Of a DNA stretch of 64,000 bases, positions 981 through 59,715 are shown piece by piece. The DNA is from Escherichia coli (GTDB lineage Bacteria > Pseudomonadota > Gammaproteobacteria > Enterobacterales > Enterobacteriaceae), in NCBI RefSeq assembly GCF_013122565.1, contig NZ_CP053258.1. One strand, written 5' to 3'. Each line of letters starts with the position of its first letter. Position 1 is the stretch's first letter. Both the position numbers and the translations under genes were made by a program. The notes under the pieces are model-generated. The model did no database searches. It was not told where the DNA came from and was given only the letters and a program-made list of their open reading frames with translations.

Positions 981-1937
981 TCAGTGCTGCTGCAAAAAGT
1001 CTTCAATGTCAGCCAGTGAGGATATCCCTTCCATCGGACCTTGCCGCATTACGGCGAGCGCGCCGCTGGCATTTGCATATTGCAGTGCCTTATGTGCCGG
1101 GAAACCGGATAAGAAAAGAGTGATAAACGTTGCGCCAAAGCAGTCGCCTGCACCCGTTGGATCGATAATTTCGATATCGTGGCCTGTAACATGCTGGGCG
1201 TGTAATGTACCGTTTTTAAGCTTGTAATAGCTGGCCCCACGCTGGGCGCGTTTTATCGCCACATGTTTTACGCCGCCGTGGAGAAGATCGCTAACAATCT
1301 GTTCTTCTGACAGATTTTTGTGACGCGCGAAGAAAGGGAGTTCGCTTTCGCTGGGGATAAAAATATCCGTATATTCAATTAAATAATCGAGGGCCTGCGC
1401 CATTTCAGGAATGCTCAGCATCTCTTTGCGAATATTGGGATCGAAAGAAACGGTGCCGCCAGCCGATTTGATCGTCGTTATTGCTTTACGCATGACATCG
1501 ATCATGCGAAATGAGAACAACGATGAGCCCACAATATGGAGATGGTTACACTGTTTTAGCAGATCCTTATCAATGTGCTCAGCAGTAAACAAACCGCAGG
1601 CGCTGTTAGGGATATTAAAGACGAAATCCCGCTGCTGGGGATTTTGATAACTCACGAACGCCGTACCTGTGACGGCATTGTTCATAACATGGATCCCATC
1701 GGTAATGACACCTTCATGGCGGAGACGCTCTATAATGAGTCGGCCAAAATCATCATTACCAACACATCCAAAGAAGATGGCCCGATGGGACAGTTTTGCC
1801 ACCTGAGCAGCAAAAATTGCTGGCGCACCGCTGGGAAATGGCCCGATAAACTCCCCAGGCTGAGTGAATTTTTGATGTGGGTTGCGGGACAAAAACTCGG
1901 CCAGCAATTCGCCCATAGCGCAGATAGTTATTGTCAC
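981..1937 (-). CDS. PfkB-family carbohydrate kinase (island kinase 1)
   Basis: ORF 981..1991; probable GTG start at 1937 preceded by GAGAGGGG RBS (longest ORF would overlap the upstream regulator). Clear paralog of the kinase at 7472..8434 (shared blocks GPxPSGAPAIF, FDPNIRKEMLxIPEM, DPTGAGDCFG, ALQYANAxGALAVxRxGPMEG). Confidence 0.8.
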   Translation of the reverse strand: MTITICAMGELLAEFLSRNPHQKFTQPGEFIGPFPSGAPAIFAAQVAKLSHRAIFFGCVGNDDFGRLIIERLRHEGVITDGIHVMNNAVTGTAFVSYQNPQQRDFVFNIPNSACGLFTAEHIDKDLLKQCNHLHIVGSSLFSFRMIDVMRKAITTIKSAGGTVSFDPNIRKEMLSIPEMAQALDYLIEYTDIFIPSESELPFFARHKNLSEEQIVSDLLHGGVKHVAIKRAQRGASYYKLKNGTLHAQHVTGHDIEIIDPTGAGDCFGATFITLFLSGFPAHKALQYANASGALAVMRQGPMEGISSLADIEDFLQQH

Positions 1938-1947
1938 AAAACCCCTC

Positions 1948-2778
1948 TCATTCCTGAAGCCTTTCGCGATTGGACCAGGTAAAGCACTCATTACTGGTAT
2001 AAAGGATAACGAAATCAGCCGACTGCAATTGTTGCTGATATTGTTCGTTAATGCTGCGGCTGACGATCACATTTTCTGCCTGATGCAAATGCCCGATAGC
2101 AGCCGTTGATGGCGCAGGGTCGGCGGCAACGATAACTGTCTTATTCTGGGCATGATCGAAACAGAGCTGCCAGGCAGCGGCAAGTCTGGGAACGTTGATA
2201 TTTAAGGTACCATCAGCATCCAGAAGGCTGATTTCCAGAATGCTGTGTGTAATGGTGAAATGCTGAAGTGCCTGTTCGAGCGGTTTTCCGGCCAGTGCGG
2301 TGTCGGGGCGCAGCATTTCACTGCCAGCCAGTATTATTTCGCCATCAATAAACTGATTTGCCAGCAGCGCATGTTCGGGATCGTTGGTGATCAGACGCAG
2401 TTTTTTCACTTCGCTGAGCAAGGGAATGATCTTACGGCAGATTGTTCCATGTCCAAGAAATAGCGTGTCACGGTCGCGAATTAGCCGTGCGCAATGTCGT
2501 GCTATTTCCATTTGTTGTGCCAGAGACAATGGCGCGATCGGTTGTATCGCTTCTGGTTCAGAGGAGAGTGGTGTCGCAATAGCACCGCCAAATGATCGCT
2601 TTAAATATCCCTGTTGCTCCAGATAACTGAGATCGCCGCGGATCGTCACGCCAGAGACACCAAGTTGCGCAGATAAGTCATCAACTTTGATTTCACCCTG
2701 GGCGGCAACAATTTCTGCAATTTTTAATCTGCGTTTCAGTAGGTTAGACGATTTTCTCGGCACGTTAACACTCTTCAT
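1948..2778 (-). CDS. DeoR-family transcriptional regulator (HTH plus sugar-phosphate-binding domain)
   Basis: 276-aa ORF; N-terminal DeoR-type HTH (IAEIVAAQGEIKVDDLSAQLGVSGVTIRGDLSYLEQQGYLKR) followed by a DeoR C-terminal-like domain; directly upstream of kinase 1 on the same strand. Confidence 0.8.
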   Translation of the reverse strand: MKSVNVPRKSSNLLKRRLKIAEIVAAQGEIKVDDLSAQLGVSGVTIRGDLSYLEQQGYLKRSFGGAIATPLSSEPEAIQPIAPLSLAQQMEIARHCARLIRDRDTLFLGHGTICRKIIPLLSEVKKLRLITNDPEHALLANQFIDGEIILAGSEMLRPDTALAGKPLEQALQHFTITHSILEISLLDADGTLNINVPRLAAAWQLCFDHAQNKTVIVAADPAPSTAAIGHLHQAENVIVSRSINEQYQQQLQSADFVILYTSNECFTWSNRERLQE

Positions 2779-3974
<1,196 letters not shown>

Positions 3975-4009: not shown

Positions 4010-4900
4010 ATGAAAAATATTAAATTACTTGGTTCAGCTATGTTGGTGAGCCTGGCATTGTTCTCGCAAAGTTCGTTGGCAAAAGAGTATAAAATTGGTG
4101 CGTCATTATTAACACAGCAACATCCTTTCTATATTGATCTTGCGAATGCCATGAAAGAAGAGGCAAAAAAAGACAATGTCAATTTAAGTGTCTCTATTGC
4201 CAATCAGGATTTAAACAAACAACTTTCTGATGTTGAGGATTTTATTACTAAAAAAGTGGATGCCATTATTATCTCTCCGGTCGATTCGAAAGGCGTCCAG
4301 GCGGCGATAATTAAAGCCGATAAGGCCGGTATTCCCGTTATCACCGTCGACGTCGCTGCGGAAGGCGTTCCGGTCGTATCGCATGTTGCGACCGATAACT
4401 ATGCGGGAGGCGTTGAAGCAGGCAAGTTAATGGGCAAACTTTTGAATGGTAAAGGTACTGTAGCCATTATTTCTTATCCGGCACTACAGTCGGTAGTTGC
4501 GCGCGTTGATGGTTTTAAGAAAGGGTTAAGCGATACTCCGGATATTAAAATTGTTGCTGAACAGCCTGGTATTACGCGGGCTGAAGCGTTAACGACTGCG
4601 CAAAACATTATGCAGGCAAATGCCAACCTGAATGGTCTGTTTGGCTTTGGTGATGATGCGGCGCTGGCAGCGGTTATCGCAGCGAAATCTGCGCATAACG
4701 ACAACATCAAAATCATTGGTTTTGACGGCATGAAAGAAGCGCGTGATGCCGTTGACAGTGAAAAAACGTTTGCGGCCGTGATTCGGCAATATCCCGATAA
4801 AATGGGTGCTAAAGCCATTGATGCCGCTGTTGATCACCTCAATGGTAAACCGGTAGAAAAAATGATCCCGGTACAACCCGGCGTTTATACAGGTAAATAG
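4010..4900 (+). CDS. Periplasmic sugar-binding protein of an ABC transporter (RbsB/PBP type-1 family)
   Basis: ATG at 4010 with GAGGA RBS (track ORF starts at TTG 4004); N-terminal signal peptide (LLGSAMLVSLALFSQSSLA); periplasmic-binding-protein type-1 fold signature by eye. Confidence 0.8.
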   Translation: MKNIKLLGSAMLVSLALFSQSSLAKEYKIGASLLTQQHPFYIDLANAMKEEAKKDNVNLSVSIANQDLNKQLSDVEDFITKKVDAIIISPVDSKGVQAAIIKADKAGIPVITVDVAAEGVPVVSHVATDNYAGGVEAGKLMGKLLNGKGTVAIISYPALQSVVARVDGFKKGLSDTPDIKIVAEQPGITRAEALTTAQNIMQANANLNGLFGFGDDAALAAVIAAKSAHNDNIKIIGFDGMKEARDAVDSEKTFAAVIRQYPDKMGAKAIDAAVDHLNGKPVEKMIPVQPGVYTGK

Positions 4901-4960
4901 TAAACATCTTCACCTCACAACAAAACGTTATTGGCGTTTTGTTGTGACACCGAGGTCATT

Positions 4961-6460
4961 ATGACGGATGTTATTCTTGATGTTTCGCATATTGCGAAGA
5001 CATTTGGTCATGTTCAGGCATTAAAAGATATTACCCTCTCTTTACGTAAAGGGCGGGTGCATACTTTATTAGGCGAGAATGGTGCCGGTAAATCGACATT
5101 AATGAAAATACTGGCCGGTGTTTATCCGCCAACCCAGGGAACGATAACACTACGTGGTGAAACCATCACCATTAATAATCCGCAGCATTCACGCCAGTTA
5201 GGGATTGCGATTATTTTTCAGGAACTGAGCCTGAGTAATAATATGACCGTGGCGGAAAATATTTATGCCAATAATGAACCGCGACGTTTTGGCATTATTA
5301 ACGATAAAAAAATGCTCGCAGATTGTCAGAATCTCCTTGCGGAACTGGGCATCCCACTGGATCCGCTAGAAATGGTCGGCAATATGTCGATGGCACATAG
5401 GCAACTGGTAGAAATTGCCAAAGCCTTAAGCTATGCAGCGGATGTCGTGATTATGGATGAACCGACATCTTCGCTAAGTGATAATGAAGCGGAGATTCTG
5501 TTTAACATTATTGAAAAATTAAAGCAGCGAGGCTGTGCGGTTATTTATATCTCTCATCGCATGGATGAAATTATGCGGATTTCAGATGATATTTCGGTGA
5601 TCCGCGACGGTGAGTATATCTCTACGCATGAAAAGAAAAACAGTGATATCCAGCATTTGATTGCCCAAATGGTTGGTCGGGAAATGAAAAATATTTGGCC
5701 AGCGCGTCTTGGGGAAAAACCGAATGAAAATGTTCCTGCAAAACTGGAAGTAAAAAATCTTTCCCATCCTTCGCTTTTTAAAGAGGTCAGTTTCGCTGTG
5801 CGTCCGGGGGAAGTCCTCGGATTTTTTGGCCTGGTGGGGGCCGGGCGTTCCGATGTGATGAAGGCGCTCTTTGGCCTCGTTTCGTATCACGGGACTGTGT
5901 TGATTGATGGTGAGGAAGTCAGGATCGCTAATCCTAAACAGGCTATTGATCATGACATTGCTTTTGTGACCGAAAACCGCAAGGAAGAAGGGTTAGTACT
6001 GATGCACGACGTCAATATGAACACGCACCATGTAGCGTTTCAATATAACGCTTCGCGGATGGGACTCATCAATCACCGACAAGAAGAGGCGAAGACGCTG
6101 CAATCAATTGCCAGAATGAACACTAAAGTGAGTTCTGTACATCAGGCAGTGGGAGCGCTGAGCGGCGGTAATCAACAGAAAATCGTGTTATCGAAGTGGC
6201 TGGAGAAAACTCCGCGTATTTTATTGCTCGATGAGCCAACGCGCGGAGTGGATGTAGGCGCAAAATTTGAAATCTATAACGTGATTCGTCAACTGGCTGC
6301 GGCAGGGACAGCAATTATTCTGGTGTCCTCTGAACTGCCAGAAGTCATGGCACTTAGCGATCGTCTGGTGGTAATGCGTAATAAAACGATTGCCGATATT
6401 TATTCATGTGAAAATTTAACGCAGACACAGGTAATGACCGCTGCAACAGGAGTACGTTAA
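4961..6460 (+). CDS. ABC transporter ATP-binding protein with duplicated ABC domains (RbsA/MglA-like)
   Basis: Walker A GENGAGKST, ABC signature LSGGNQQK, second Walker-A-like GLVGAGRS; ATG 4961 preceded by GAGG; about 499 aa, typical of sugar-importer ATPases. Confidence 0.85.
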   Translation: MTDVILDVSHIAKTFGHVQALKDITLSLRKGRVHTLLGENGAGKSTLMKILAGVYPPTQGTITLRGETITINNPQHSRQLGIAIIFQELSLSNNMTVAENIYANNEPRRFGIINDKKMLADCQNLLAELGIPLDPLEMVGNMSMAHRQLVEIAKALSYAADVVIMDEPTSSLSDNEAEILFNIIEKLKQRGCAVIYISHRMDEIMRISDDISVIRDGEYISTHEKKNSDIQHLIAQMVGREMKNIWPARLGEKPNENVPAKLEVKNLSHPSLFKEVSFAVRPGEVLGFFGLVGAGRSDVMKALFGLVSYHGTVLIDGEEVRIANPKQAIDHDIAFVTENRKEEGLVLMHDVNMNTHHVAFQYNASRMGLINHRQEEAKTLQSIARMNTKVSSVHQAVGALSGGNQQKIVLSKWLEKTPRILLLDEPTRGVDVGAKFEIYNVIRQLAAAGTAIILVSSELPEVMALSDRLVVMRNKTIADIYSCENLTQTQVMTAATGVR

Positions 6461-7450
6461 ATGACAGAGAAAACTCTTGCCAGTCCGAAACCTTCGGAAA
6501 TTCCCATTGCAAATAATTTTAAAAAAGTCTTCAGGCAATATGGCGGTATCCTCAGTGGAATGGTGGTGTTAATCATTCTGTTCAGTTTTATTAATGACAG
6601 TTTTTTTACCGCCAATAACATTACTAATATTATTCTTCAGGTTTCGATAATTGCAATTACCGCCTATGGAATGACTTATGTACTTTTGCTTGGCGATATT
6701 GATTTATCGGTCGGTTCAACCATTGCATTGATTGGCACATTTGCTGCGCTTGGGGCTTCATGGGGAATTCCATTTATTTTATTGGTCCCATTATCCATTA
6801 TTGCAGCACTGGCTCTGGGGATGATAAATGGTGGCTTGACGGCTATAGCGGGGATCCCCTCGTTTATTGTCACCGTTGCTACTATGGGGATCTTCCGTGG
6901 TATCGCTTATATCGTGACCGATGGTATGCCCATCATGATTAAAGATGATGCCTTTCTGGCGCTGGGGAATGGAGAATTTCTCTATATACCTATTCCTATC
7001 TGGATATTAATCATCTTATTGCTGATTAACCATTTCATTCTTACTAAAACAACCTTTGGACGAAAAATTTATATCACTGGTGGTAATAAAGAAGCGGCAG
7101 TTTATTCAGGGATAAATGTCACCCGCTTGAAAATTAAAGTCTTTATGATCACAGCCGTGCTGGCAGGTATCAGCGGGATGATCCTCGCCTCACGCCTCTA
7201 TTCCGGGCAACCGAATTCCGCGTTGAGCTACGAACTGGATGCTATTGCTGCGGCTGTACTGGGAGGCACCAGCCTGAACGGTGGCTATGGAACCGTGGTG
7301 GGGACGGTGATCGGCGCATTAACCATCGGCGTTATCAATAATGGCATGAACTTAATGAATGTTCCCTATTTTTACCAGATGGTGGTTAAAGGATTAGTCA
7401 TTCTTGTAGCCGTTTATTTTGACGTAAGAAATAAAAGAAAACGCAGCTAA
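6461..7450 (+). CDS. ABC transporter permease (RbsC-like)
   Basis: 329-aa highly hydrophobic multi-TM ORF; ATG immediately follows the ATPase stop (translational coupling). Confidence 0.8.
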   Translation: MTEKTLASPKPSEIPIANNFKKVFRQYGGILSGMVVLIILFSFINDSFFTANNITNIILQVSIIAITAYGMTYVLLLGDIDLSVGSTIALIGTFAALGASWGIPFILLVPLSIIAALALGMINGGLTAIAGIPSFIVTVATMGIFRGIAYIVTDGMPIMIKDDAFLALGNGEFLYIPIPIWILIILLLINHFILTKTTFGRKIYITGGNKEAAVYSGINVTRLKIKVFMITAVLAGISGMILASRLYSGQPNSALSYELDAIAAAVLGGTSLNGGYGTVVGTVIGALTIGVINNGMNLMNVPYFYQMVVKGLVILVAVYFDVRNKRKRS

Positions 7451-7471: not shown

Positions 7472-8434
7472 ATGAGTAAGGTCTTCACAATTGGAGAAAT
7501 TCTGGTTGAAATTATGGCGAGTAAAATCGGCCAGCCATTTGATCAACCAGGTATCTGGAACGGCCCTTATCCCAGTGGTGCGCCCGCTATTTTTATCGAC
7601 CAGGTGACACGTCTTGGCGTTCCGTGCGGCATCATTAGCTGTGTGGGGAATGATGGCTTTGGTGATATTAATATACATCGTCTGGCTGCTGACGGTGTGG
7701 ATATCAGGGGGATTTCAGTCTTACCTCTGGAAGCCACCGGGAGTGCCTTTGTTACTTATCATAACTCTGGCGATCGCGATTTTATTTTTAATATTAAGAA
7801 TGCCGCTTGCGGTAAATTATCGGCACAGCATGTTGATGAAAATATTCTGAAGGACTGTACCCATTTTCATATTATGGGCTCATCCCTGTTTTCGTTTCAT
7901 ATGGTAGACGCAGTAAAAAAAGCGGTAACCATCGTTAAAGCAAATGGTGGCGTTATTTCTTTCGACCCTAATATTCGAAAAGAGATGCTCGATATTCCAG
8001 AAATGCGTGACGCCCTTCACTTTGTTCTTGAGTTAACGGATATCTATATGCCCAGCGAGGGCGAAGTGTTGCTCTTGTCGCCACATTCGACGCCGGAGCG
8101 TGCAATCGCTGGTTTTCTTGAAGAAGGTGTTAAAGAGGTGATTGTGAAGCGCGGCAATCAAGGTGCCAGTTACTACTCCGCGAATGAGCAGTTTCATGTG
8201 AAGAGCTATCCGGTGGAAGAAGTTGACCCGACCGGTGCGGGAGACTGCTTTGGTGGCGCGTGGATTGCCTGCCGCCAGCTAGGGTTTGACGCCCATCGGG
8301 CATTACAATATGCCAACGCCTGCGGTGCACTGGCGGTAACCCGACGTGGCCCAATGGAGGGAACGTCTCGCCTTGCGGAAATCGAAGCGTTCATCCAGCG
8401 CCATGACATGTCCATTCGGGAAGCAGCACAATGA
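7472..8434 (+). CDS. PfkB-family carbohydrate kinase (island kinase 2)
   Basis: 320-aa ORF with PfkB motifs (DPTGAGDCFG, GG..N region); AAGGA RBS; paralog of kinase 1. Confidence 0.85.
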   Translation: MSKVFTIGEILVEIMASKIGQPFDQPGIWNGPYPSGAPAIFIDQVTRLGVPCGIISCVGNDGFGDINIHRLAADGVDIRGISVLPLEATGSAFVTYHNSGDRDFIFNIKNAACGKLSAQHVDENILKDCTHFHIMGSSLFSFHMVDAVKKAVTIVKANGGVISFDPNIRKEMLDIPEMRDALHFVLELTDIYMPSEGEVLLLSPHSTPERAIAGFLEEGVKEVIVKRGNQGASYYSANEQFHVKSYPVEEVDPTGAGDCFGGAWIACRQLGFDAHRALQYANACGALAVTRRGPMEGTSRLAEIEAFIQRHDMSIREAAQ

Positions 8435-9477
8435 AAAACGAAATTTGGTCGTGGATTGGCGATCTCTCGCAGGTTGCCGGAATTAAACACTATGAGTTAC
8501 GTAGTGGCAGAGCAAAGGGTACAGAAGCATTTGATGTCCGTACTGGTGCGGGACTGGCATTTACGGTGGTAAAAGATCGCGCGCTGGATATTGCATGGGC
8601 CAGCTACAAGGACACGGCGCTCTCTTTTATCACCCCCAACGGCATTGTCGCCCCCGCTTTTTTTGAGTCTCAGGGCAACGGATTTTTACGTAGCTTTTAC
8701 GCGGGGTTACTGACTACCTGCGGACTTAGCTACATTGGCACGCCCTGTGAGGATGAAGGAGAAACGCTGGGGTTACACGGGCGTTTGGCTGCGACTCCAG
8801 CAGAAGAGGTGGGGTATCGCACAGAACGGACCGACGACGGCATTGAATTTGTCATCAATGGCAAAGTACGGGAAACGCGATTGTTCGGTGAAAATCTGAC
8901 GCTGGAAAGGACCATTCGCTGCCGTTATGGCGAAAATGTGCTGCGCATTGAAGACAAGGTGACTAATCATGGTTTCACCCGCCAGCCGCTGCAAATTCTT
9001 TATCACTTTAATTACGGCTGGCCTTTATTATCGCCACAGGCAGAAATCTTGCTGTCGGCTAAAAGCGTAACGCCACGAACTCCGCATGCGGCGGAAGGGT
9101 TAACCAGTCATCTGGAGATTTGTACCCCACAGCCCGGTTTTGACGAGCAGGTTTACTATCTCACGTTGAATAGCGACAGTCAGGGGATGAGTAAAGTTGC
9201 GCTGGTGAACGCCGAACTGGGGTGGGGAATTTACGAGAAATTCGACACCATGCAGCTACCCAACTTTATCCAGTGGAAAAATTTAGGCGCGGGTGAATAT
9301 GTTATGGGACTGGAGGTCAGTAATAGTTTTCCTGACGGTCGTGATAAAGAACGAGCGCAGGGGCGTCTGCCCTTTATTGAGCCAGGGGAAACAAAGAAAT
9401 ACTGCTTTGAGCTGGGAATTGTTGATGGTGATGCTGAAATTAGCGCGTTGAAAGCGGAAATTGCAGGCTACCGTTAG
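8431..9477 (+). CDS. Conserved protein of unknown function, possibly aldose-epimerase-like fold (unverified)
   Basis: 348-aa ORF whose ATG overlaps the kinase 2 stop (ATGA), last gene of the + strand island operon; no transmembrane or signal features; family assignment is from memory only. Confidence 0.6.
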   Translation: MKNEIWSWIGDLSQVAGIKHYELRSGRAKGTEAFDVRTGAGLAFTVVKDRALDIAWASYKDTALSFITPNGIVAPAFFESQGNGFLRSFYAGLLTTCGLSYIGTPCEDEGETLGLHGRLAATPAEEVGYRTERTDDGIEFVINGKVRETRLFGENLTLERTIRCRYGENVLRIEDKVTNHGFTRQPLQILYHFNYGWPLLSPQAEILLSAKSVTPRTPHAAEGLTSHLEICTPQPGFDEQVYYLTLNSDSQGMSKVALVNAELGWGIYEKFDTMQLPNFIQWKNLGAGEYVMGLEVSNSFPDGRDKERAQGRLPFIEPGETKKYCFELGIVDGDAEISALKAEIAGYR

Positions 9478-9485
9478 CTAACGGC

Positions 9486-9521
9486 AATAAAAACGCCGGG
9501 CAGCGTTAACAGGCCCGGCGT
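9486..9521 (-). terminator. Rho-independent terminator downstream of accC (minus strand)
   Basis: GC stem CGCCGGGC / GCCCGGCG (9494..9501 and 9513..9520) followed on the minus strand by TTTTTATT; lies between accC and the island. Confidence 0.6.
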
Positions 9522-9567
9522 TGATTACGTTCTTTGCTAAGCGCGATGAACCACCGCGCGTCACAAA

Positions 9568-10917
9568 TTATTTTTCCTGAAGACCGAGTTTTTTCTCCAG
9601 ATAGTGGATGTTAGTGCCACCATGCTGGAAGTTCTCGTCATTCATGATGCGGATCTGCAGATCAACGTTGGTTTTGATACCGTCGATGATCAGCTCCTGC
9701 AGCGCATTCTTCATGCGGGCAATCGCCACGTCACGGTTTTCACCGTAGCAAATCAGCTTACCGATCATTGAGTCATAGTACGGCGGTACGGTGTAGCCCG
9801 CGTAGATATGAGACTCCCAACGTACGCCAAAACCGCCAGGTGCGTGGAAACGGGTGATTTTGCCCGGGCTTGGCAGGAAGGTGTTCGGATCTTCGGCGTT
9901 GATACGACATTCCACCGCATGGCCGCGAACGTGAACTTCTTCTTGCTTGATCGACAGCGGTTGACCGGCAGCGATACGCAGCTGTTCTTTGATCAGGTCA
10001 ACGCCGGTGATCATTTCTGTAACCGGGTGTTCTACCTGAATACGGGTGTTCATTTCGATGAAATAGAACTCGCCGTTTTCGAACAGGAACTCGAAAGTAC
10101 CTGCACCGCGATAGCCGATATCAACACACGCTTTAGCGCAACGTTCGCCGATGTAGCGACGCAGTTCCGGGGTAATGCCCGGTGCTGGTGCTTCTTCGAC
10201 CACTTTCTGGTGGCGGCGCTGCATGGAGCAGTCACGTTCCGCCAGATAGATAGCGTTGCCCTGACCGTCAGCCAGTACCTGAATCTCGACGTGGCGAGGA
10301 TTTTCCAGGTATTTCTCCATGTAAACCATATCGTTGCTGAAAGCAGCTTTCGCTTCCGCACGGGTCATGGAGATGGATTGTGCCAGTTCAGCGTCGCCGC
10401 GCACTACGCGCATACCGCGACCACCGCCGCCGCCGGAGGCTTTGATAATCACCGGATAACCAATGCGTTTAGCAATGGCACGGTTTTTATCCATATCGTC
10501 GCCCAGCGGGCCGTCAGAACCCGGTACGCAAGGGACGCCCGCTTTTTTCATCGCCGCGATTGCGGATACTTTGTCGCCCATCAGGCGAATGGTTTCTGCT
10601 TTCGGGCCAATGAAGATAAAGCCGGAGCGTTCAACCTGCTCTGCAAAGTTGGCGTTCTCGGAGAGGAAGCCGTAACCCGGATGGATTGCTACTGCGCCGG
10701 TGATTTCAGCGGCGCTGATGATTGCCGGGATGTTCAGATAACTTTTTACTGACGGAGCAGGGCCAATACAGACCGTTTCATCTGCCAGTAATACGTGTTT
10801 TAGATCGCGATCCGCGCTGGAGTGCACAGCGACAGTCTTGATGCCCAGTTCTTTACAGGCACGAAGAATACGCAATGCAATCTCGCCGCGGTTGGCAATA
10901 ACAATTTTATCCAGCAT
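9568..10917 (-). CDS. accC: Biotin carboxylase subunit of acetyl-CoA carboxylase
   Basis: 449-aa product [27 protein letters not shown]... recognisable as AccC; track ORF extends 13 codons upstream. Confidence 0.95.
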
Positions 10918-10927
10918 GTTCGCCTCG

Positions 10928-11398
10928 TTACTCGATGACGACCAGCGGCTCGTCAAATTCTACCGGTTGTCCACTTTCGACCAGAATTGCTTTCACGGTA
11001 CCGGATTTGTCCGCTTCGATCTGGTTCATCATTTTCATGGCTTCAACGATGCACAGGGTATCGCCCACGTTGACTTTCTGACCCACTTCGATGAACGCTT
11101 TTGCGTCCGGGCTTGGGGTGCGGTAGAAAGTACCAACCATCGGGGAGCGTACGATGTGACCACTGATTTCCGCTGCTGCTGGCGCTTCCATGGAAGGAAC
11201 GGTCGCCGGAGCGGCTGCGTTAGATTGAGCTGGCTGCTGCATCATTGGTGCAGCGTAAGCTTGTTGCATCACAGGGAAACTTGCGGCAGGAGCTGCACGG
11301 CTAATGCGTACTGACTCTTCGCCTTCAGAAATTTCCAGTTCGGAGATGCCTGATTCTTCAACCAGCTCGATCAGTTTTTTAATCTTACGAATATCCAT
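10928..11398 (-). CDS. accB: Biotin carboxyl carrier protein (BCCP)
   Basis: 156-aa product with Ala/Pro-rich linker and the biotinylation motif EAMKMMN. Confidence 0.95.
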
Positions 11399-12263: not shown

Positions 12264-13094
12264 TTAATGCAAGGTTTCTACCCAGGGATAAAAGTGACCG
12301 TTACGGCGGATGAATATCTGTGTTGTCAGAGGATGGTCATCCTCACGGAAGCATTGTTCTGTTAACTGTCGTAATGCGCTGAGATTTGCTGGCTGATCAT
12401 TGTGGGTGAAAAACAGTTTTCCTCGGGAGGGAACAGTCACTAACAGGTCGCCGCATTCAGGATCGGGTGATTGCACCCAAAGATCGTCAATGAGCATCAG
12501 ACTGGGCTCATAAGTACCCCCTGCGGAGATAACGGCAACTTTTCCATCGTTTGCGCCTGTATCAACGATTTCAGCCGTAACTTCCGGCAATATTTGCTTC
12601 AAATTACTGATGGCTTGTTCGCGGTCAATGGTCACTTCGTAGCGCATCAGATAGCGCATGGTTTCGCTACCATCTTCAGCAAACAAGATAATTAACTCAT
12701 CGTTAAAGTCTTCCCAGGCAAAATCCAGCGAGGCGTTGAGGACCTCTGGATCAGACTCATACTGGCTAAGCTGTTGGCGAACGGTATCCAGCCAGGCTTT
12801 TTCTTTAATCACCGGAACAATACAGCGCCCGGTCGGCAGCATTTCTGCAAGCTGTTTCAGCATATCTGCAGCCACTTCTTGCAGCGGGTCTGGTGCGGCT
12901 TGATAACGTTTGTAGGCATCATCAAGGGTGATTTCCACCGTTTGGTGACCCGTATCAATGCGCATCAATTTATGGTCAGTCGAAATCATGACTTTCCAGT
13001 TTGGATGATGTTGTACAACTTCATGACCAAGATGTTCGACGAAAGCTGTCCGGCTAACCGCTTTTCCCGTTAACCGATTGAATAATGATTTCAA
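12264..13094 (-). CDS. Hypothetical protein, 276 aa, function unknown
   Basis: Long ORF downstream of acuI on the same strand; probable TTG start with GAGGG RBS; own terminator; no family recognised by eye. Confidence 0.6.
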   Translation of the reverse strand: MKSLFNRLTGKAVSRTAFVEHLGHEVVQHHPNWKVMISTDHKLMRIDTGHQTVEITLDDAYKRYQAAPDPLQEVAADMLKQLAEMLPTGRCIVPVIKEKAWLDTVRQQLSQYESDPEVLNASLDFAWEDFNDELIILFAEDGSETMRYLMRYEVTIDREQAISNLKQILPEVTAEIVDTGANDGKVAVISAGGTYEPSLMLIDDLWVQSPDPECGDLLVTVPSRGKLFFTHNDQPANLSALRQLTEQCFREDDHPLTTQIFIRRNGHFYPWVETLH

Positions 13095-59603: not shown

Positions 59604-59715
59604 CCCCGGCTAGACCGGGGTGCGCGAATACTGCGCCAACACCAGGGAAATCTTGGCTGCGCCGTAAATTATTATGATGAGTTACAAGGGCACAGCACTG
59701 TTTTTCAGGCCGCAC
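59595..59715 (-). ncRNA. arcZ: Small regulatory RNA ArcZ (SraH/RyhA), convergent with and overlapping the arcB 3' end
   Basis: Minus-strand sequence GTGCGGCCTGAAAAACAGTGCTGTGCCCTTGTAACTCATCATAATAATTTACGGCGCAGCCAAGATTTCCCTGGTGTTGGCGCAGTATTCGCGCACCCCGGTCTAGCCGGGGTCATTTTTT matches ArcZ as I recall it, including the terminator hairpin CCCCGG-TCTAG-CCGGGG and U-tract. Confidence 0.8.

What the first reader, a model, noticed from the sequence alone, without database searches (positions are those of the whole stretch)
8431..9477. Translationally coupled 348-aa protein of unknown function at the end of the island operon
Its ATG overlaps the stop of kinase 2 (ATGA at 8431), implying stoichiometric co-expression with the kinase. 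It has no signal peptide or TM segments and I could not assign it a confident family. It could be an isomerase or epimerase that converts the imported sugar into the kinase substrate.
Basis: inference. Interest (0 to 1): 0.5.

Follow-up and report, generated by a model that had tools for sequence, protein, structure and literature searches.

The report
tagE: mutarotase-like gene of tagatose operon
The 348-residue protein is the already published but biochemically untested last gene (tagE) of the E. coli D-tagatose utilisation operon, a cytoplasmic protein with a galactose-mutarotase fold that most likely speeds up ring-form interconversion of imported tagatose so that the neighbouring kinase can phosphorylate it.

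Summary
ORF 8431-9477 (+) encodes 348 aa, its ATG overlaps the kinase stop (ATGA), and it has no TM segment or evident signal peptide. It is a real gene under strong purifying selection (dN/dS 0.03-0.07).

It is not family-less. It matches Pfam DUF4432 end to end (E 1.6e-104) and RefSeq calls it 'aldose 1-epimerase family protein'. It is 98% identical to E. coli Nissle 1917 tagE, the last gene of the published tagYABCDE D-tagatose operon inserted between accC and yhdT. Both papers state that the biochemical function of tagE is untested.

Best reading (about 0.55): a free-sugar mutarotase or 'pyranase' that supplies tagatofuranose to the 6-kinase TagD, analogous to GalM with GalK and RbsD with RbsK. 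The gene is already known, so interest is low to moderate.

The parts
8431..9477 (+). tagE orthologue: 348-aa cytoplasmic DUF4432 protein with a galactose-mutarotase-like fold. Candidate catalytic residues are H116, H192, E239 and E295.
8431..8434 (+). ATGA start/stop overlap between the tagatose kinase gene and tagE (translational coupling signal).
   Evidence: Sequence. Conserved in four enterobacterial genera.
8418..8423 (+). Shine-Dalgarno-like GGGAAG inside the 3' end of the kinase gene, 7 nt upstream of the tagE ATG.
   Evidence: Sequence. The (G/A)GGAAGC motif is present at the same place in orthologous clusters. Function is inferred.
7472..8434 (+). tagD orthologue: PfkB-family D-tagatose kinase. 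It is the proposed consumer of the TagE product.
   Evidence: NCBIfam TagKinase NF049991, 414 bits against a cut-off of 420. 317/320 identical to the EcN kinase, whose deletion abolishes growth on tagatose.
3120..3974 (+). tagY orthologue: class II tagatose-1,6-bisphosphate aldolase, first gene of the operon.
   Evidence: NCBIfam GatY-type aldolase, 529 bits. Synteny with EcN.
4010..7450 (+). tagA, tagB and tagC orthologues: RbsB-like binding protein (4010-4900), ABC ATPase (4961-6460) and permease (6461-7450). They import free, unphosphorylated tagatose.
   Evidence: ORFs. NCBIfam RbsB-like. RefSeq annotation of identical clusters. Starts taken from RefSeq gene lengths.
981..2778 (-). Divergent tagR (DeoR repressor family, 1948-2778) and tagK (second PfkB kinase, 981-1916/1991).
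   Evidence: NCBIfam. Annotation. Naming in PMC12226905.
9492..9522 (.). GC-rich hairpin (10-bp stem) between the convergent tagE and accC genes. It is a likely terminator: clear T-run on the accC side, weak U-tract on the tagE side.
   Evidence: Terminator scan, - strand 9507..9492. Fold -20 to -22.5 kcal/mol, z only -1.3.

Best explanation
The gene is the orthologue of tagE, the last gene of the D-tagatose utilisation operon tagYABCDE. Its product is a soluble cytoplasmic enzyme with the galactose-mutarotase fold. It most likely uses general acid/base catalysis (His116/His192 with Glu295, helped by Glu239) to open and re-close the hemiketal ring of free D-tagatose delivered by the ABC importer. 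This would speed up equilibration of the dominant pyranose forms with the minor furanose forms. The PfkB kinase TagD phosphorylates O6, which is the ring oxygen in the pyranose, so it can only use the furanose (or open-chain) form. TagE would therefore keep the kinase supplied, as GalM does for GalK and RbsD (ribose pyranase) does for RbsK. It is expected to be an accessory, rate-enhancing enzyme and not an essential step. Shown here: gene, family, fold, conservation, context and orthology to a tagatose-induced gene. Inferred: substrate (free tagatose), catalytic residues and the pyranose-to-furanose role.
For: Family and fold:
- Full-length DUF4432 match.
- Homology to PDB 3TY1, 'hypothetical aldose 1-epimerase'.
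- AF2 model pLDDT 95.1.

Candidate catalytic residues:
- Conservation in TagE-like sequences: H116 109/112, H192 112/112, E239 108/112, E295 112/112. All four are 20/20 in the 3TY1 subfamily.
- They lie on the same secondary-structure elements, in the same order, as H104, H175, D245 and E309 of an E. coli GalM model.
- The local motifs also resemble each other: LHG; YHFN vs NHxYFN; GLEP vs LALE/AVEP.

Genomic context:
- The three nearest non-enterobacterial homologues (53-57% identity) all lie next to a PfkB kinase.
- Other relatives follow Rbs-type ABC transporters and precede an SDR aldose-dehydrogenase-like gene plus lactonase (L031).
- Others sit in isomerase/FGGY-kinase/aldolase cassettes or beside lyxose/mannose isomerases. 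These are the positions that FucU, RhaM and GalM occupy in known operons.
- Contexts without any kinase argue that the family acts on free sugars.

Orthology and expression:
- 98% identical to EcN tagE, with the same synteny.
- EcN tagE is induced more than 40-fold on tagatose as part of an operon with a single TSS (PMC9720028; PMC12226905).
- K-12 galK and galM overlap in the same way, and yphFEDCB ends with a mutarotase gene.

Kinase requirement: a PfkB fructose 6-kinase binds the beta-furanose, a minority tautomer (PMC6240065).
Against: - No activity has been measured for any DUF4432 protein.
- Sequence and profile methods do not connect DUF4432 to PF01263: hhalign probability is below 1%. 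The catalytic-residue mapping therefore rests on strand order and motifs, not on a superposition.
- As far as I know, characterised GalM-fold mutarotases act on aldoses, not 2-ketoses.
- Ketohexose tautomerisation may already be fast enough spontaneously.
- The six-gene cluster was tested only as a whole, so tagE may be dispensable.
- My neighbourhood survey used a small home-made reference set, and about a third of the 80 loci had no recognised neighbour.
Confidence: 0.55

Rival explanations
1. TagE is a sugar-phosphate mutarotase. It equilibrates the alpha and beta anomers of D-tagatofuranose 6-phosphate between TagD and PfkA, as YeaD/Ymr099c do for hexose 6-phosphates.
For: - The pathway needs PfkA to act on Tag-6-P.
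- The TagE-like set has several near-invariant arginines (R50, R87, R160, R304), and three of them are absent from the periplasmic 3TY1 subfamily.
- The gene follows the kinase.
Against: - The same arginines are conserved in homologues whose context has no kinase at all: ABC transporter, DUF4432, SDR and lactonase (L031).
- They are also conserved beside free-sugar isomerases.
- The fold scores to phosphate-specific members are no better than those to free-sugar mutarotases.
Confidence: 0.15
2. TagE is an ordinary aldose mutarotase for a second, still unidentified substrate of the transporter/kinase system, or a broad-specificity one. It plays no role in tagatose use itself.
For: - Known GalM-fold mutarotases act on aldoses.
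- Many DUF4432 relatives lie beside aldose isomerases or aldose dehydrogenases.
- tagE was never deleted on its own.
Against: - The cluster has no aldose isomerase or dehydrogenase.
- tagE is induced by tagatose in EcN.
- It is retained in essentially every genome that has the cluster: 1421 genomes with the gene against 1419-1422 with the cluster.
- The closest homologues pair with PfkB ketose-type kinases.
Confidence: 0.1
3. TagE is a true epimerase or isomerase, for example a Tag-6-P 4-epimerase replacing the unrelated TagE of Sinorhizobium/Agrobacterium, or a tagatose-to-fructose/sorbose converter.
For: - It occupies the position that the Tag-6-P epimerase gene has in alpha-proteobacterial clusters (PMC9720028).
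Against: - No match to any epimerase or isomerase family; the only Pfam hit is DUF4432.
- The fold is that of cofactor-free mutarotases.
- The cluster carries its own tagatose-bisphosphate aldolase, and growth requires PfkA. That fits Tag-6-P to Tag-1,6-BP and leaves no need for conversion to fructose-6-P.
Confidence: 0.07
4. TagE is non-catalytic. It would be a cytoplasmic sugar-binding protein that buffers or channels tagatose to the kinase, or that modulates induction through TagR.
For: - Mutarotase-like beta-sandwich domains are often non-catalytic carbohydrate-binding modules in glycoside hydrolases and lyases (ranks 19-60).
- The gene shows tight translational coupling to the kinase.
Against: - Near-invariance of a His/His/Glu/Glu set across phyla and across both subfamilies is typical of catalysis.
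- The gene is stand-alone, with strong purifying selection.
Confidence: 0.05

Closest known systems
E. coli Nissle 1917 tagE (HW372_RS02470 = ECOLIN_RS18670), last gene of the tagYABCDE D-tagatose operon (Ha et al. 2022, PMC9720028; 2025 follow-up, PMC12226905)
   Same: 342/348 identical residues. Same gene order, same ATGA overlap with the kinase, and same insertion site between accC and yhdT.
   Different: Six amino-acid substitutions only. No functional difference is expected. The published gene itself has no tested function.
PDB 3TY1 (KPN_04629, Klebsiella pneumoniae, 'hypothetical aldose 1-epimerase'), the only solved DUF4432 structure
   Different: Only 27% identical. That subfamily is 402 aa with a signal peptide, and in the one genome context examined it is a stand-alone gene between tpx and tyrR, so it is probably periplasmic. 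It lacks R87, R160 and R304 of the TagE-like set. Its function is also unknown.
Galactose mutarotase GalM (PF01263, EC 5.1.3.3) and its paralogues YphB, YihR and YeaD
   Different: No detectable sequence or profile similarity. GalM acts on aldopyranose anomers, whereas the proposed TagE substrate is a 2-ketohexose and the useful product is a different ring size.
RbsD (D-ribose pyranase) / FucU / RhaM mutarotases
   Same: Proposed physiological role: convert the transported pyranose into the form needed by the first cytoplasmic enzyme, the ribokinase in the case of RbsD. This rests on established knowledge; rbsUDK usage is cited in PMC3146418.
   Different: Unrelated folds and families. TagE has no RbsD_FucU or rhamnose-mutarotase domain. 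This is an analogy of function only.
Tagatose-6-phosphate 4-epimerase (TagE of Sinorhizobium meliloti / Agrobacterium tumefaciens tagatose clusters)
   Same: Same gene name and the same relative position after the ABC transporter and tagatose kinase genes (PMC9720028).
   Different: An unrelated protein, 'highly divergent' according to the authors. The E. coli pathway proceeds via PfkA and a TBP aldolase instead.

Membership tests
Pfam DUF4432 (PF14486) | Significant full-length match to the family HMM | tested here: met
   E 1.6e-104, residues 29-329 on model positions 2-303 of 304. All 120 listed homologues carry PF14486.
E. coli tagYABCDE D-tagatose operon, gene tagE | Near-identity to EcN tagE and the same position: downstream of and overlapping the tagatose kinase, with the island between accC and yhdT | tested here: met
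   342/348 identical. Kinase 317/320 identical. Identical gene order and flanks. The whole 8.7-kb island is 98-98.8% identical in 1419 genomes.
E. coli tagYABCDE D-tagatose operon, gene tagE | Induction by D-tagatose and contribution to growth on tagatose | not testable with these tools
   Published for EcN only at cluster level: more than 40-fold induction, and a six-gene deletion is Tag-negative. tagE alone is untested.
Galactose mutarotase-like superfamily (aldose 1-epimerase fold) | Mutarotase beta-sandwich fold | tested here: met
Aldose 1-epimerase family PF01263 (GalM/YeaD/YphB/YihR) | Sequence or profile match to the family | tested here: not met
   No PF01263 hit at E<=10. A PDB profile search finds only 3TY1. 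hhalign against GalM, four K-12 paralogues and a 123-sequence GalM profile gives probability below 1%.
Aldose 1-epimerase family PF01263 (GalM/YeaD/YphB/YihR) | Catalytic residues: two His, a Glu base and an Asp (E. coli GalM H104, H175, E309, D245; L. lactis H96, H170, E304, D243, from the literature as I recall it) | tested here: inconclusive
   H116, H192, E295 and E239 are near-invariant. They fall on the same strands in the same order as the GalM residues when the two DSSP strings are compared. No 3D superposition could be done.
Aldose 1-epimerase family PF01263 (GalM/YeaD/YphB/YihR) | Mutarotase activity (EC 5.1.3.3-type anomer interconversion) | not testable with these tools
   No assay exists in the literature searched.
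RbsD/FucU pyranase-mutarotase family | RbsD_FucU domain | tested here: not met
   The only Pfam hit is DUF4432, and the fold is an all-beta sandwich. This is a functional analogy only.
Tagatose-6-phosphate 4-epimerase / GatZ-KbaZ-type or any sugar isomerase family | Match to an epimerase or isomerase family | tested here: not met
   No such hit in Pfam or NCBIfam. The authors of PMC9720028 also report no similarity to S. meliloti TagE.

The most novel reading that the evidence does not exclude
TagE would be the first characterised ketohexose-specific ring-form converter (a 'tagatose pyranase') built on the galactose-mutarotase fold. DUF4432 as a whole would then be a widespread, unrecognised family of free-sugar mutarotases that replaces GalM, FucU, RhaM or RbsD in many catabolic clusters across at least ten phyla.
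Probability: 0.4. Interest if true: 0.45.

Novelty: already known. Interest (0 to 1): 0.25.

Why it matters
The gene and its operon are published, so the scan finding adds no new biology. What remains open is biochemical. The tagatose operon is a tractable place to test it, because it offers a defined substrate, a defined kinase and a known phenotype. If TagE proves to be a ketose mutarotase or pyranase, that result would:
- give the DUF a function;
- improve annotation of many sugar clusters in gut and environmental bacteria;
- possibly help engineering of tagatose-inducible or tagatose-consuming E. coli Nissle strains.

The operon is also common in B2/ExPEC lineages, so its full enzymology bears on how these strains use a food sweetener.

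Tried and rejected
1. **Sequence link to PF01263.** I tried hhalign of a 42-sequence DUF4432 alignment against GalM alone, against four K-12 paralogues, and against a 123-sequence GalM-family profile built from 50%-identity representatives, in both local and global modes. All gave probability below 1%. Residue mapping therefore had to rest on strand order from two AF2 models.
2. **PDB profile search.** At E<=10 it found only 3TY1.
3. **NCBIfam.** There is no model for the protein.
4. **Literature.** DUF4432 and PF14486 give no functional paper. '3TY1' gives only unrelated hits. 'Tagatose + mutarotase' gives nothing relevant. I found no held paper with tagatose tautomer percentages, so that point rests on my own knowledge.
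5. **Context of the 3TY1 subfamily.** I looked for hints about phosphorylated substrates. That subfamily is a signal-peptide-bearing, stand-alone gene between tpx and tyrR and is uninformative.
6. **Rejected readings.**
   - Secreted or membrane protein: no signal peptide and no TM segment.
   - Chance ORF: excluded by dN/dS.
   - C-epimerase or isomerase: no family match, and the pathway already has its own aldolase and depends on PfkA.
Full report
**1. The observation**

The window has an ATG-initiated ORF at 8431..9477 (+) encoding 348 aa. The preceding ORF, 7472..8434, ends in TGA at 8432-8434, so the two genes share ATGA. A GGGAAG Shine-Dalgarno-like motif lies 7 nt upstream.

Both the overlap and the motif are conserved in the orthologous clusters of E. 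coli, Superficieibacter electus, Klebsiella spallanzanii and an Enterobacter sp..

The protein has no hydrophobic stretch: the highest 19-residue Kyte-Doolittle mean is 0.96. Its N-terminus does not look like a signal peptide.

The gene is followed by a GC-rich hairpin at 9492-9522 and by the convergent accC gene, so it is the last gene of its operon.

It is a real, constrained gene:
- dN/dS against four orthologues is 0.03-0.07.
- It occurs, full length, in 1421 of 5426 complete E. coli genomes.

**2. What the gene is**

- It matches Pfam DUF4432 (PF14486) almost end to end, E 1.6e-104.
- It is homologous to PDB 3TY1, 'hypothetical aldose 1-epimerase' (E 1.3e-32).
- RefSeq annotates it as 'aldose 1-epimerase family protein'.

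The surrounding 8.5-kb island lies between yhdT and accC. It encodes:
- a GatY-type tagatose-bisphosphate aldolase;
- an RbsB/A/C-type ABC importer;
- a PfkB kinase that scores 414 bits on the NCBIfam tagatose-kinase model (cut-off 420);
- divergently, a DeoR regulator and a second PfkB kinase.

This is the D-tagatose utilisation cluster described in E. coli Nissle 1917 by Ha et al. 2022 (PMC9720028). A 2025 follow-up (PMC12226905) named the genes tagYABCDE and tagRK.

The window protein is 342/348 identical to EcN tagE, and the kinase is 317/320 identical to EcN tagD.

**3. What is published on the cluster**

- Deleting the six-gene cluster or the kinase alone abolishes growth on tagatose.
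- The cluster confers growth on K-12, B and W strains.
- PfkA is required, which fits tagatose to Tag-6-P to Tag-1,6-BP to DHAP + G3P.
- All six genes are induced more than 40-fold on tagatose, and the first three more than 1000-fold.
- There is one TSS, 64 nt upstream of tagY, and none inside the cluster.

**4. Fold and active site**

- B. subtilis YoxA;
- Slr1438;
- yeast hexose-6-phosphate mutarotase;
- Gal10;
- E. coli YphB;
- L. lactis GalM;
- Salmonella YeaD.

Sequence methods cannot bridge to PF01263. The protein is therefore a member of the mutarotase-like superfamily by fold, not of the PF01263 family by sequence.

Within DUF4432 a small set of residues is near-invariant:

| Residue | TagE-like sequences | 3TY1 subfamily |
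|---|---|---|
| H116 | 109/112 | 20/20 |
| H192 | 112/112 | 20/20 |
| E239 | 108/112 | 20/20 |
| E295 | 112/112 | 20/20 |

I compared the DSSP string of the model with that of an equally confident model of E. coli GalM.
- H116 follows a short strand and precedes a 3-10 turn, exactly as GalM H104 does.
- Four strands later, H192 sits in the strand equivalent to the one carrying H175.
- E239 opens the strand equivalent to that of D245.
- Three strands later, E295 sits in the strand equivalent to that of E309.

The local motifs also correspond: LHG; YHFN against NHxYFN; GLEP against GLALE/LAVEP.

That these GalM residues are the catalytic acid/base set is from my own knowledge of the GalM literature.

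**5. Context in other organisms**

The family is very widespread. They span Bacillota, Bacteroidota, Armatimonadota, Chloroflexota, Ignavibacteria, Poribacteria, Atribacterota, Latescibacterota and others.

Pfam-annotated neighbourhoods, by identity to TagE:

| Homologue | Identity | Neighbourhood |
|---|---|---|
| P0014 | 57% | next to PfkB |
| P0016 | 56% | Mannitol_dh, PfkB, DUF4432 |
| P0018 | 53% | lyxose-type isomerase, PfkB, DUF4432, RbsBAC-type transporter |
| P0112 | 44% | LacI, RbsB/C/A-type transporter, DUF4432, SDR (rhamnose/glucose 1-dehydrogenase-like), SGL lactonase |
| P0053 | 48% | AraC, FGGY kinase, class II aldolase, fucose-isomerase-like, DUF4867, DUF4432, ADH, SSF transporter |
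| P0024, P0097 | 49%, 46% | beside lyxose/mannose isomerase-like genes |

I also made a cruder survey of 80 genome loci with a home-made reference set. It found the following within 5 kb:

| Neighbour | Loci |
|---|---|
| Rbs-type ABC components | 11-15 |
| FGGY kinases | 12 |
| Mannitol_dh-family dehydrogenases | 10 |
| class II aldolases | 9 |
| Zn-ADH | 8 |
| SDR | 7 |
| PfkB | 5 |

About a third of the loci had no recognised neighbour, which reflects the limited reference set.

The common denominator is a free monosaccharide that has just been imported or released, placed next to the first enzyme that acts on it. This is where GalM, FucU, RhaM, YihR and RbsD sit in known operons. Contexts without any kinase (dehydrogenase plus lactonase) indicate that the family works on unphosphorylated sugars.

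**6. Mechanism proposed for this gene**

TagD is a PfkB 6-kinase. In tagatopyranose O6 is the ring oxygen, so only the furanose or open-chain form can be phosphorylated at O6.

A PfkB fructose 6-kinase has been shown crystallographically to bind beta-D-fructofuranose, a minority tautomer (PMC6240065). From my own knowledge, D-tagatose in water is mainly alpha-pyranose, with only a few per cent furanose. I could not find a held paper giving the figures.

A ring-opening catalyst translationally coupled to the kinase would keep the furanose pool replenished. Known parallels are:
- GalM with GalK, whose genes overlap in K-12;
- RbsD, the ribose pyranase, with RbsK (established knowledge; operon usage cited in PMC3146418);
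- yphB at the end of yphFEDCB.

I put this reading at about 0.55.

**7. Rival explanations**

- **Tag-6-P anomerase (0.15).** It would act between TagD and PfkA. It is compatible with the fold and with several conserved arginines. It is weakened because those arginines are also conserved in kinase-free contexts.
- **Aldose mutarotase for another substrate (0.10).**
- **A true C-epimerase or isomerase (0.07).** This is disfavoured by the absence of any family match, by the cluster's own TBP aldolase and by the PfkA requirement.
- **A non-catalytic binding protein (0.05).**

**8.

'Isomerase or epimerase' in the carbon-skeleton sense is not supported. 'No family' is wrong. 'Stoichiometric' expression is not shown. 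The verdict is partly supported.

**9. Novelty and verdict**

The gene is already known and named, its family annotation is standard, and the operon has been validated experimentally. The only open point is that no DUF4432 protein has a measured activity. A ketose-directed mutarotase or pyranase on this fold would be a modest but real biochemical novelty.

Overall interest is 0.25, and the novelty class is 'already known'.

Noticed in passing
window 981-1991 (-) and 1948-2778 (-): A second PfkB kinase (tagK) is co-transcribed with the DeoR regulator tagR. It scores 346 bits on the tagatose-kinase model; the published figure is 51% identity to TagD. Its role is unknown, and it cannot replace TagD in EcN according to PMC9720028. 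The mechanical ORF (336 aa, ATG at 1991) is 25 codons longer than the RefSeq call (311 aa) and overlaps the end of tagR.
   Followed up: partly
window 12264-13094 (-): A 276-aa ORF lies between accB and acuI/yhdH. RefSeq annotates it as 'hypothetical protein' in strain E2863. It has no confident Pfam or NCBIfam family; the best hit is DUF1444 at E 0.01. In E. coli Nissle the same position holds a yedZ-like pseudogene instead, so this is a second strain-variable spot next to the tag island.
   Followed up: partly
window 59608-59715 (-): The ArcZ sRNA gene is present (Rfam RF00081, 120.8 bits, full length).
   Followed up: no
L001 7532-9030 (E. coli E2863) versus window 4961-6460: The ABC ATPase gene of the tag cluster is annotated as frameshifted in strain E2863, while it is intact in the window. 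The cluster may therefore be decaying in some non-B2 lineages even though tagE stays intact.
   Followed up: no
P0017 (493 aa, NCBI): One database protein fuses a PfkB domain to DUF4432 at 99% identity to the window protein. It is most likely a frameshift or read-through across the ATGA overlap in one assembly, not a natural fusion.
   Followed up: no
L096 8001-9209; P0332; P0328: The 3TY1 subfamily of DUF4432 (402 aa) carries an obvious signal peptide (MKIKFAFTLLAVLVSGHAAA). In the Enterobacter roggenkampii locus examined (L096) it sits alone between tpx and tyrR, and the subfamily is found across many Enterobacterales. A periplasmic mutarotase-like protein of unknown role.
   Followed up: partly
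L015 (E. coli E69, CP089930.1) 10001-11044: One E. coli genome carries a clearly divergent tagE allele: 90% nt and 94.5% aa identity, dS 0.45. Other E. coli are 95-99% identical. This suggests more than one acquisition of the island, or an old allelic split.
   Followed up: no
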